Virus record (IMG/VR): IMGVR_UViG_3300045988_121014
Coordinates: 1-46,022 of that record
Reading direction: 5' to 3' (one strand)
Source of the DNA: a virus
Length of the DNA: 46,022 nt
The notes below the pieces were generated by a model that worked only from the letters and a program-made list of their open reading frames with translations, searched no databases and was not told the DNA's origin. The translations under genes were made by a program, and so were the position numbers. This document shows, in pieces, positions 6,126 to 6,501 of the stretch (the stretch's first letter is position 1; each line of letters opens with the position of its first letter).

Positions 6126-6154
6126 TTGACAAATCAATGACAACGTGATATAAT
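6126..6154 (+). promoter_or_regulatory. perfect sigma70/sigmaA-type promoter TTGACA-N17-TATAAT with TG at -15/-14
   Basis: TTGACA at 6126-6131, 17-nt spacer, TGaTATAAT at 6146-6154. Confidence 0.8.
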
Positions 6155-6173
6155 AGTAGTACCACATAGCAAC

Positions 6174-6445
6174 CGTCGGGTGAGGGCTCGACACCCTATA
6201 CTGAGAGCGCCACAGAGCGCCGAACCGTAATGGGGAGGTGGTCTTGTGAGTAAATTCGAGAAACTGTACCTAACCGTCTGCATTCTCCAGCTCATCGTTG
6301 ACCTCTTAATGCTTGGTCTGACGCTTTAATCAACTGACCGTTTAAGCGACTGAGTTCACCGACATTTCGATTATCGCACATCCCAGAAAATAACCGCATT
6401 CAGGAATCCGCCTGAATACGGAGTACCCTCACCCGACGTCGTTTT
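6174..6445 (+). ncRNA. structured transcript/leader closed by a 13-bp perfect long-range stem, followed by TCGTTTT
   Basis: cgtcgggtgaggg (6174-6186) is the exact reverse complement of ccctcacccgacg (6426-6438). Internal hairpin at 6394-6421. Confidence 0.45.
6246..6329 (+). CDS. 27-aa hydrophobic peptide (M)SKFEKLYLTVCILQLIVDLLMLGLTL, type-I-toxin-like or small membrane protein
   Basis: GGGGAGGTGG SD 4 nt before GTG. Charged N-terminus plus one predicted TM helix. Below the ORF-track cutoff. Confidence 0.5.
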   Translation: MSKFEKLYLTVCILQLIVDLLMLGLTL

Positions 6446-6472
6446 GCCTGTCACGAATTTGTGACTGATAAT

Positions 6473-6501
6473 ATTATAACCTAAAATCTTAGGAATGTCA
6501 A
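6473..6501 (-). promoter_or_regulatory. perfect TTGACA-N17-TATAAT early-left promoter
   Basis: Reverse complement of 6473-6501 = TTGACAttcctaagattttaggtTATAAT. Confidence 0.8.

What the first reader, a model, noticed from the sequence alone, without database searches (positions are those of the whole stretch)
6126..6501. Face-to-face perfect consensus promoters with about 300 nt of antisense overlap at the lysis-lysogeny switch
A plus-strand TTGACA-N17-TGaTATAAT promoter (6126-6154) points at a minus-strand TTGACA-N17-TATAAT promoter (6473-6501).
- Predicted starts near 6161 and 6466 make the two RNAs fully complementary over about 300 nt.
- The minus promoter feeds the roughly 15-kb early operon through an unusually long leader of about 370 nt. 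The first SD and ATG are at 6094.
- The plus promoter reads through a small ORF toward the XRE repressor gene (6569), for which I cannot find a good promoter of its own.
- The -35 of the minus promoter sits inside a TTAGGAAT-N11-ATTCCTAA operator-like inverted repeat.

Convergent promoters are known in P2/186-type switches, but there the overlap is short. A 300-nt overlap containing a structured RNA and a peptide gene suggests regulation by transcriptional interference and/or RNA duplex formation.
Basis: partly seen in the sequence, partly recalled or inferred. Interest (0 to 1): 0.75.

Follow-up and report, generated by a model that had tools for sequence, protein, structure and literature searches.

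The report
Conserved face-to-face promoter cassette in phage switch
Two perfect promoters really do fire at each other across about 300 bases at this gut phage's lysis-lysogeny switch, and the stretch between them is a conserved cassette holding a tiny membrane-peptide gene, a folded RNA domain and a terminator; it is a new variant of the convergent-promoter switches known from phage lambda, phage 186 and plasmid pCF10.

Summary
Both promoters match the consensus 12/12, and the window holds six such sites against 0.01 expected by chance.

The 306 nt between the predicted starts is a self-contained cassette, found in 24 distinct related gut-phage sequences. It is 98-99.7% identical where the flanking genes are 60-90% identical. 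It contains:
- an invariant extended -10 plus-strand promoter;
- a 26-27-aa hydrophobic ORF with a coding signature;
- a 14-bp long-range helix closing the domain, with compensatory changes in 4 pairs;
- a hairpin with a U-tract on the minus strand only.

The true operators are two CCTAA-N4-TTAGG palindromes flanking the -35. They change together with the repressor allele.

In relatives, 0.5-1.1 kb of genes on both strands separate the cassette from the early promoter. The face-to-face design is therefore conserved, but the overlap length is not. No plus-strand terminator lies before the repressor gene.

Best reading: a convergent-transcription switch, as in lambda PR/PRE (320 bp) and pCF10 PQ/PX (223 nt), so the long overlap is not unprecedented. 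A type I toxin-antitoxin reading of the peptide and antisense RNA remains open. No transcript data exist.

The parts
6092..6109 (-). Start of the first early gene (97 aa, 6094-5801): ATG at 6094-6092 and SD AAGGAGGAG at 6109-6101. It abuts the cassette in every relative.
6114..6131 (.). Palindrome-like TGGCAC-N6-TTGACA overlapping the -35 of P(+). It is a perfect palindrome, TGTCAA-N6-TTGACA, in L110-type relatives. It resembles the palindrome at 6449-6466.
6126..6154 (+). P(+): TTGACA-N17-TGaTATAAT, a perfect extended -10 promoter. Predicted start is about 6161. Both hexamers, the 17-nt spacing and the TG are invariant in all 24 distinct homologues and independent of immunity type.
6174..6187 (.). 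5' arm of the long-range helix (CGTCGGGTGAGGGC). It pairs with 6425-6438.
6204..6221 (+). Two AGAGCGCC repeats (four in B-type relatives). They are predicted to pair with the SD/start region GGUGGUCUUG of the small ORF.
6232..6329 (+). SD GGGGAGGTGG (6232-6241) and the small ORF 6246-6329, with a GTG start: MSKFEKLYLTVCILQLIVDLLMLGLTL. A second allele in relatives reads MTRYEKLTLLIAILTLVCRIISIVAR.
6384..6421 (-). Intrinsic terminator of the early (minus) strand: an 11-bp hairpin at 6421-6394 followed by UUAUUUUCU at 6393-6385. The U-tract is on the minus strand only and is conserved (one U fewer in L111).
6425..6438 (.). 3' arm of the long-range helix (ACCCTCACCCGACG).
6449..6466 (.). Palindrome TGTCAC-N6-GTGACT at +1 to +18 of P(-). 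It is conserved across immunity types. It is either a 5' hairpin of the minus RNA or a second operator.
6473..6501 (-). P(-): TTGACA-N17-TATAAT, the early lytic promoter. Predicted start is about 6466.
6480..6524 (.). Operators O1 (CCTAAAATCTTAGG, 6480-6493, in the P(-) spacer) and O2 (CCTAATTTTTTAGG, 6511-6524, upstream of the -35), 31 bp apart. Equivalent paired palindromes with a different sequence occur in phages carrying other repressor alleles.
6569..6907 (+). XRE-type HTH repressor gene (112 aa).

Best explanation
The region is a conserved cassette of about 330 bp at the head of the early operon. It creates a convergent-transcription switch.

P(-) is the operator-controlled early lytic promoter. 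P(+) is a constitutive consensus promoter with no immunity-specific operator. It lies antisense inside the early leader.

P(+) transcribes a 5' RNA domain. A 14-bp helix closes this domain, and it contains the gene for a 26-27-aa membrane peptide. The peptide's ribosome-binding site is predicted to be masked. Transcription then continues into the plus-strand lysogeny genes, including the repressor.

RNA polymerase leaving P(-) meets a conserved intrinsic terminator 45-80 nt downstream. It then meets head-on traffic and the occupied P(+).

In a lysogen the repressor shuts P(-). P(+) is then unopposed and sustains the peptide and repressor. When the repressor is lost, the equally strong P(-) interferes with P(+) and produces RNA fully antisense to its transcript, which tips the switch.

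Shown here:
- the sequence elements and their conservation;
- covariation of the helix and the hairpin;
- the coding signature of the ORF;
- co-variation of the operators with the repressor;
- the absence of a plus-strand terminator.

Inferred:
- the actual transcription starts;
- read-through of the terminator;
- transcriptional interference;
- RNA-RNA effects;
- the role of the peptide.
For: **Promoters**
- Both promoters score 12/12. There are six such sites in the window against 0.01 expected.
- Both are present in all relatives.
- P(+) keeps its hexamers, spacing and TG across three or more immunity types, while the P(-) spacer operators change with the repressor.

**Conservation.** The cassette is 98-99.7% identical. 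The neighbouring early gene is 73-90% identical, the operators 60%, and the repressor 76-82% at the nucleotide level.

**Read-through toward the repressor**
- No plus-strand terminator lies between 6161 and 6569, nor in the B-type locus L102.
- In B-type relatives, real plus-strand genes fill the gap between the cassette and the repressor. One is a 137/152-aa membrane protein, 62% identical between two loci. None has a good promoter of its own.
- In L110 and L111 the next plus-strand gene starts about 10-25 nt after the cassette.

**Small ORF**
- There are 10 synonymous and 7 mostly conservative changes, and no change at codon position 2.
- A second allele has about 50% nucleotide divergence but keeps the length and the hydrophobic pattern.

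**RNA structure**
- 4 of 14 helix pairs and 2 of 11 hairpin pairs show compensatory double changes.
- 92-96% of cells are paired, against 33-48% when the register is slid.
- The SD has a predicted unpaired probability of 0.25 and the start codon 0.02.

**Precedents.** Lambda PR/PRE are 320 bp apart with about 5-fold interference (PMC5001618). pCF10 PQ/PX overlap over 223 nt (PMC3181467).
Against: - There are no transcript data. The starts, read-through into the repressor gene and interference are all inferred.
- Weak plus-strand promoter-like sites overlap P(-): TTGTGA-17-TAAAAT at 6459-6487, and TGATAATAT at 6466-6474 (sequence). The repressor could therefore have a local promoter.
- The minus-strand terminator would stop early transcription unless it is read through, and no antiterminator was identified.
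- G-U versus A-C intermediates do not say which strand owns the helix. Pairing is 92.2% on the plus strand and 96.0% on the minus strand.
- Most compensatory cells trace to one A-type/B-type lineage split, so independent events are few.
- A perfect constitutive promoter driving an unregulated repressor is unusual.
Confidence: 0.5

Rival explanations
1. Type I toxin-antitoxin module built into the switch. The plus RNA (about 6161-6447) would be a stable, translationally locked toxin mRNA for the 27-aa hydrophobic peptide. It would be closed by 5'-3' pairing, as in hok. The RNA of about 80 nt made from P(-) and ended at the minus-strand terminator (6466 to about 6385) would be the cis-antisense antitoxin. 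It would overlap the toxin mRNA 3' end, as in bsrG/SR4 or txpA/RatA of Bacillus prophages. This reading can coexist with the switch model.
For: - The ORF is small, hydrophobic and under coding selection.
- The 5' UTR is 85 nt long, with repeated anti-SD-like AGAGCGCC motifs and a masked SD and start codon.
- The closing helix shows covariation and sits at a fixed distance from the plus start in all homologues.
- In A-type loci, a perfect promoter, a 5' hairpin, a single-stranded stretch and a terminator give a textbook 80-nt sRNA.
- L106 is a natural deletion of just the SD and ORF, as often happens to toxin genes.
- Type I modules are common in prophages of Firmicutes (PMC6563280).
Against: - There is no match to any Pfam or NCBIfam toxin family.
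- The supposed antitoxin promoter carries the repressor's operators. It would therefore be off in lysogens, exactly when the toxin mRNA is made.
- In L110 and L111 there is no minus-strand promoter within 220 nt of the cassette. In other B-type loci there is only a 9/12 site inside a coding region. A dedicated antitoxin RNA is therefore not a conserved feature.
- Removing the 3' arm does not change predicted SD accessibility.
- Toxicity is untested.
Confidence: 0.22
2. The conserved structure serves the early (minus) transcript. The terminator and long-range helix would form a regulated leader, by attenuation or antitermination, that gates the early operon. P(+) with its peptide gene would be merely a lysogeny-expressed moron that happens to sit there.
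For: - The U-tract is on the minus strand only.
- The hairpin and helix pair slightly better on the minus strand: 94.7 versus 89.8% and 97.0 versus 94.0%.
- The minus leader folds with z = -3.7, against -2.1 for the plus RNA.
- In B-type loci the terminator lies after two small early genes, like lambda tR1 after cro.
Against: - The 3' arm is transcribed 240 nt after the terminator, so the helix cannot influence termination co-transcriptionally.
- No alternative antiterminator pairing was found.
- The helix sits at a constant distance from the plus start, but 28 nt to more than 1.1 kb from the minus start.
- A-type phages lack the small early genes that could encode an antiterminator.
Confidence: 0.15
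3. The 13-14-bp inverted repeats are the ends of an invertible DNA segment (an inverton). Flipping it would move the terminator to the other strand, as in Clostridioides difficile cwpV-type switches (own knowledge).
For: - A perfect 13-bp inverted repeat flanks 239 bp that hold a strand-specific terminator.
- The arms change together. Recombination sites would do the same.
Against: - All of about 57 loci recovered are collinear.
- A search for the inverted junction in IMG/VR found nothing.
- 20 of 24 distinct sequences, the window included, carry at least one non-Watson-Crick pair in the 14-bp helix as counted. Identical crossover sites should not tolerate this, although the window's 13-bp core is perfect.
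- The only recombinase nearby is the integrase at 8081-9115.
Confidence: 0.03

Closest known systems
Phage lambda PR / PRE convergent promoters
   Same: - The lytic promoter, controlled by the immunity repressor, faces a lysogenic promoter.
- The lysogenic promoter reads back across it into the repressor gene.
- The starts are 320 bp apart, against 306 here.
- Interference is relieved when the repressor shuts the lytic promoter (PMC5001618).
   Different: - PRE is weak and needs the CII activator. It serves establishment, not maintenance.
- The overlapped DNA in lambda is the cro gene.
- Here the plus promoter is a perfect, apparently constitutive promoter.
- Here the overlap holds a peptide gene, a closed RNA domain and an early-strand terminator.
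pCF10 prgQ / prgX (PQ / PX) of Enterococcus faecalis
   Same: - Convergent promoters overlap by more than 200 nt.
- The repressor gene is transcribed from a promoter inside the opposing operon's leader.
- A terminator lies in the leader of the repressed operon.
- A small peptide gene lies in the overlap region.
- Regulation is reciprocal, through interference, antisense RNA and RNase III (PMC3181467).
   Different: - In pCF10 the peptide gene lies on the PQ strand and encodes a signalling peptide sensed by PrgX.
- Here the peptide gene lies on the repressor strand.
- Here the repressor is a 112-aa HTH protein. Pfam detects only the HTH, and the roughly 45 residues after it seem too few for a peptide-binding domain (inference).
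- Peptide allele and repressor allele do not co-vary: L234 versus L004.
Coliphage 186 / P2 pR-pL face-to-face switch
   Same: Lytic and lysogenic promoters face each other. The repressor activates the lysogenic promoter by relieving interference (PMC5001618, introduction).
   Different: The overlap there is short (about 62 bp in 186, own knowledge). It contains no gene, structured RNA or terminator.
Type I toxin-antitoxin modules of prophages (bsrG/SR4, txpA/RatA, C. difficile CD0956.2/RCd10; hok/sok for the 5'-3' fold-back)
   Same: - A small hydrophobic peptide.
- A structured mRNA with a masked ribosome-binding site.
- Convergent cis-antisense RNA overlapping the 3' end.
- A prophage location (PMC6563280).
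   Different: - No sequence similarity to known toxins.
- The antisense promoter is the phage's operator-controlled early promoter.
- A dedicated antisense promoter is absent in some homologues.
- The type A peptide (27 aa) lacks the charged C-terminal tail typical of Gram-positive toxins.

Membership tests
Convergent-promoter lysis/lysogeny switch (lambda PR/PRE, 186 pR/pL) | Two promoters face to face with overlapping transcription units | tested here: met
   Both promoters score 12/12, with predicted starts 306 nt apart. The arrangement is conserved in 24 distinct homologues.
Convergent-promoter lysis/lysogeny switch (lambda PR/PRE, 186 pR/pL) | The lytic promoter is controlled by operators of the immunity repressor | tested here: met
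   Two 14-bp palindromes flank the -35. Their sequence changes with the repressor allele, while spacing and position are kept. Binding itself was not tested.
Convergent-promoter lysis/lysogeny switch (lambda PR/PRE, 186 pR/pL) | The opposing promoter transcribes the repressor gene | tested here: inconclusive
   No plus-strand terminator lies in between. Downstream plus-strand genes have no promoter of their own in relatives. However, weak local promoter-like sites exist and there are no transcript data.
Convergent-promoter lysis/lysogeny switch (lambda PR/PRE, 186 pR/pL) | Measured transcriptional interference between the two promoters | not testable with these tools
   This needs reporter fusions.
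pCF10 prgQ/prgX-type reciprocal antisense control | A leader terminator whose use is set by the antisense RNA through alternative folds | tested here: inconclusive
   A leader terminator is present and conserved. No alternative antiterminator fold was found.
pCF10 prgQ/prgX-type reciprocal antisense control | A peptide-sensing RRNPP-type repressor paired with the peptide gene | tested here: not met
   The repressor is 112 aa and Pfam detects only an HTH. The peptide allele does not track the repressor or operator allele.
Type I toxin-antitoxin | A small (<60 aa) hydrophobic, membrane-type peptide gene | tested here: met
   The ORF is 27 aa (26 aa in the second allele), with a hydrophobic stretch of about 20 residues. 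It shows a coding signature of 10 synonymous and 7 non-synonymous changes, none at codon position 2.
Type I toxin-antitoxin | Similarity to a described toxin family | tested here: not met
   No Pfam or NCBIfam match at E<=10. The exact peptide is absent from 15 billion predicted proteins.
Type I toxin-antitoxin | A cis-antisense small RNA with its own promoter and terminator | tested here: inconclusive
   A-type loci have a perfect promoter plus terminator, giving an RNA of about 80 nt. L110 and L111 have no promoter within 220 nt. Other B-type loci have only a 9/12 site.
Type I toxin-antitoxin | A toxin mRNA folded so that translation is blocked (masked SD, 5'-3' pairing) | tested here: met
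   This is prediction only. Unpaired probability is 0.25 for the SD and 0.02 for the start codon. The closing helix has covariation.
Type I toxin-antitoxin | Toxicity of the peptide and rescue by the RNA | not testable with these tools
   This needs expression experiments.
Invertible DNA switch (inverton) | Both orientations of the segment between the inverted repeats occur in nature | tested here: not met
   None of about 57 loci is inverted. There are no inverted-junction matches in IMG/VR. Power is low because reads were not examined.
Any Rfam RNA family | A match at the gathering score | tested here: not met
   There are no matches in the window. Only chance-level hits appear in 5900-6700.

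The most novel reading that the evidence does not exclude
The cassette is a type I toxin-antitoxin-like device wired directly into the lysis-lysogeny switch. A locked mRNA for a membrane peptide is made constitutively from a consensus promoter. The phage's own repressor-controlled early promoter doubles as the source of the RNA that pairs with it. That RNA carries the same 13-nt sequence as the mRNA's 5' arm, so it could displace the closing helix. Derepression of the prophage would then directly change the fate of the peptide mRNA, either silencing it or unlocking it. This would link induction to membrane damage, host shut-off or abortive exclusion.
Probability: 0.2. Interest if true: 0.7.

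Novelty: new variant of a known kind. Interest (0 to 1): 0.5.

Why it matters
Convergent promoters are a textbook way to build a bistable switch, but few natural examples have been dissected (lambda, 186/P2, pCF10).

This cassette is a compact example that is naturally replicated across at least three immunity types, with overlaps from 0.3 to 1.4 kb. It combines two maximal-strength promoters, an intrinsic terminator, a covarying RNA domain and a never-annotated 27-aa peptide gene.

It offers a natural series for testing how overlap length, terminators and antisense pairing contribute to switch behaviour in gut Firmicute-type phages. It also adds a candidate new small membrane peptide, possibly a toxin, expressed from prophages of the human gut.

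Tried and rejected
**Searches that found nothing useful**
- Rfam at gathering score and at a relaxed E-value.
- blastn of the region against GenBank phages: no match.
- Pfam and NCBIfam on the peptide.
- Exact look-up of the peptide: absent.

- A loose promoter pattern scanned over IMG/VR returned about 120 unrelated consensus promoters and no new homologues.

**Hypotheses tested and rejected**
- Inverton: no inverted junction.
- The candidate sRNA at about 11.2 kb acting as a trans partner of the cassette RNAs: duplex energy is no better than shuffles.
- More distant repressor relatives (30-43% identity) sharing the design: one of 42 loci examined has a plus-strand promoter of at least 11/12 within 1.6 kb upstream, an isolated 12/12 site about 1.49 kb upstream in L021. 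The design therefore appears specific to cassette carriers.
- Peptide-signalling (pCF10-like) reading: rejected. Pfam detects only an HTH in the 112-aa repressor, and the peptide and repressor alleles do not co-vary.

**Unresolved**
- Assigning the helix to one strand from G-U versus A-C intermediates: there are 2 plus-friendly and 5 minus-friendly sites.
- Host: the two MAG hits are phage-sized contigs binned as Akkermansia and Gastranaerophilales, which are probably mis-binned. The portal protein's nearest cultured relative is a Clostridium innocuum phage at 42%.

Full report
**1.

The consensus scan finds two 12/12 sigma-70-type promoters in 4500-9500.
- TTGACA-N17-TATAAT at 6126-6154 on the plus strand, with a TG extended -10.
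- The same consensus at 6501-6473 on the minus strand.

Exact TTGACA-N16-18-TATAAT occurs six times in the 46-kb window. Shuffles give 0.01. Perfect promoters are therefore a real feature of this phage.

The predicted starts (about 6161 and about 6466) are 306 nt apart. The first early gene starts at ATG 6094, behind AAGGAGGAG. The divergent gene at 6569-6907 is a 112-aa XRE/HTH regulator. It is followed by a Zn-ribbon membrane protein and a tyrosine integrase.

**2. What lies between the promoters**

- *A small ORF.* It spans 6246-6329 on the plus strand, with a GTG start and a GGAGG 7 nt upstream. It encodes MSKFEKLYLTVCILQLIVDLLMLGLTL.
- *A long-range inverted repeat.* A perfect 13-bp repeat, 6174-6186 with 6426-6438, lies 239 nt apart. 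It extends to 14 bp.
- *A terminator.* An 11-bp hairpin at 6394-6421 is followed by TTATTTTCT on the minus strand only. This is a terminator-like site for the early strand, 45-80 nt after the early start.
- *A palindrome.* TGTCAC-N6-GTGACT lies at 6449-6466. A similar sequence overlaps the -35 of the plus promoter at 6114-6131.
- *Operators.* Two exact CCTAA-N4-TTAGG palindromes lie at 6480-6493 and 6511-6524. They are the only two in the window.

Rfam has nothing here.

**3. Relatives**

Searches with the repressor, the first early protein and DNA words recovered about 57 loci holding the region. These give 24 distinct sequences. All come from human-gut viromes or metagenomes.

Two of the contigs are phage-sized and binned into MAGs, so they give no reliable host. 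The portal protein's closest cultured relative is a Clostridium innocuum phage, at 42%.

There are two architectures.
- *A-type* (the window and 15 other distinct sequences). The cassette abuts the early promoter.
- *B-type* (8 distinct sequences). Between 0.5 and 1.1 kb of DNA separates the cassette from a perfect early promoter. This DNA carries small genes interleaved on both strands. At least two of them are conserved as proteins.

The face-to-face design is therefore conserved. The overlap length is not.

One contig, L106, has a clean deletion of the SD and ORF. It keeps the promoters, the arms and the hairpin.

Among A-type phages, conservation by segment is as follows.

| Segment | Nucleotide identity |
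|---|---|
| Cassette | 98-99.7% |
| Early gene next to it | 73-90% |
| Operator segment | 60% |
| Repressor gene | 76-82% |

**4. Operators**

In each immunity type, two 14-bp palindromes sit at the same positions. One is in the spacer of the early promoter. The other is just upstream of its -35, 31 bp away. Their sequence differs with the repressor allele.
- CCTAA-N4-TTAGG in the window type.
- xxAAC-TTTC-GTTxx in the L004 type.
- TCAAC-ATTT-GTTGA in the L011 type.

This is what immunity operators look like. The plus promoter is unchanged across these types, so it carries no immunity-specific operator.

**5. The small ORF is a gene**

Within the commoner allele, 10 of 17 substitutions are synonymous. 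None falls at codon position 2, and the replacements are mostly conservative.

A second allele, MTRYEKLTLLIAILTLVCRIISIVAR, differs at about half of its nucleotides. It keeps the GTG start, the SD, the length and the pattern of a charged N-terminus followed by a hydrophobic stretch.

The peptide matches no Pfam or NCBIfam family. It has never been called as a protein.

**6. RNA structure**

On the 24-sequence alignment, 4 of the 14 pairs of the long-range helix show compensatory double changes. So do 2 of the 11 hairpin pairs. When the register is slid, pairing collapses to 33-48%.

| | Plus strand | Minus strand |
|---|---|---|
| All cells paired | 92.2% | 96.0% |
| Sites with wobble intermediates | 2 | 5 |

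The owner strand is therefore not resolved.

Three points bear on strand ownership.
- The U-tract makes the hairpin a minus-strand terminator.
- The helix sits at a fixed 13 nt from the plus start in all homologues. Its distance from the minus start ranges from 28 nt to more than 1.1 kb. This favours a role in the plus RNA.
- In the minus RNA, the 3' arm is made 240 nt after the terminator. It therefore cannot affect termination co-transcriptionally.

One caveat applies. Most compensatory cells come from the single A-type/B-type split, so independent events are few.

In the plus RNA, the AGAGCGCC repeats are predicted to pair with the SD/start region. There are two copies in A-type and four in B-type. 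The SD is 0.25 unpaired and the start codon 0.02 unpaired. The repeat variants seen in L111 and L105, AGAGTGCC and AGAGCACC, keep that pairing (sequence).

**7. Does the plus promoter reach the repressor?**

Several points favour read-through.
- No plus-strand terminator is predicted between 6161 and 6569.
- None is predicted across the whole B-type interval of L102.
- In L110 and L111, a conserved 137-aa plus-strand gene starts about 10-25 nt after the cassette. The plus promoter must therefore read out of the cassette.

Against exclusivity, weak (9/12) plus-strand promoter-like sites overlap the early promoter.

**8. Mechanism**

The best-supported reading is a convergent-transcription switch.
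- A constitutive lysogeny-side promoter reads toward the repressor.
- It faces an operator-controlled early promoter.
- The early strand carries an additional terminator.

This matches lambda PR/PRE, which are 320 bp apart. There PR inhibits PRE about 5-fold, and the inhibition is relieved by CI (PMC5001618). It also matches pCF10 PQ/PX, with a 223-nt overlap, interference, antisense-enhanced leader termination and RNase III cleavage (PMC3181467). The long overlap is therefore not new.

What is new is the content of the overlap: a mobile, ultra-conserved cassette with a peptide gene, a closed RNA domain and a terminator.

A type I toxin-antitoxin reading fits many features of A-type loci. It fails on two counts.
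- The supposed antitoxin promoter is repressor-controlled.
- It is absent next to the cassette in some relatives.

A minus-leader attenuator reading is less likely. An inverton reading is also less likely.

**9. Verdict**

This is a real, conserved regulatory cassette. The novelty claim is overstated and some details were missed. Nothing about transcription itself could be tested here.

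Noticed in passing
window 11137-11281 (- strand): A third perfect promoter, TTGACAAATCtgggaaacaGTGATATAAT, shares its first and last 10 nt with the 6126 promoter. 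About 105 nt downstream lies a strong hairpin plus U-tract (AGGAGCAGAAATGCTCCTTTTTCTT). This looks like a phage small-RNA gene, upstream of a 119-aa gene at 11006-10647.
   Followed up: partly
window 34582-34863: Two perfect promoters lie back to back: minus strand at 34610-34582 and plus strand at 34835-34863. Their spacers hold mutually inverted TTAACCGTAAAT / ATTTACGGTTAA. This is probably an operator pair of another regulator controlling divergent genes.
   Followed up: no
window 6114-6131 and 6449-6466: Similar 18-bp palindromes (TGkCAC-N6-kTGACw) overlap the -35 of the plus promoter and +1 to +18 of the early promoter. Two of the four window matches fall here, against 0.73 expected. They are conserved across immunity types. 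They may be a site for a second, non-immunity regulator acting on both promoters.
   Followed up: partly
L106:90-384: A natural variant of the cassette has a clean deletion of the SD and small ORF (cassette positions about 125-262). Both promoters, both helix arms and the terminator hairpin are kept.
   Followed up: partly
L102:6700-7870 (also L220, L234, L235, L111): B-type relatives carry four small genes between the cassette and the early promoter. They alternate strand without overlapping: a 76-aa Zn-ribbon protein, a 93-aa protein, a 152-aa membrane protein and a 63-aa protein. Each strand's transcript is therefore antisense to the other's genes over more than 1 kb.
   Followed up: partly
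L102:5850-6625: In this relative, the repressor (120 aa) is followed by a 138-aa protein with an HEIGH motif, like an ImmA-type metallopeptidase. The window instead has a Zn-ribbon membrane protein (6908-7345) after its repressor. No peptidase partner was seen next to the window's repressor.
   Followed up: no
window 2370-2417: Three tandem copies of TTGGTGTATC(G/A)GT lie inside the early region. The scan reported them as a terminator-like stem. They look more like iterons or a protein-binding array.
   Followed up: no
L110, L111: Phage-genome-sized contigs (46.3 and 43.8 kb) carrying the cassette are binned into MAGs. One is labelled Candidatus Gastranaerophilales and the other Akkermansia muciniphila. 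This is likely mis-binning, so the host of this phage group is unassigned.
   Followed up: no
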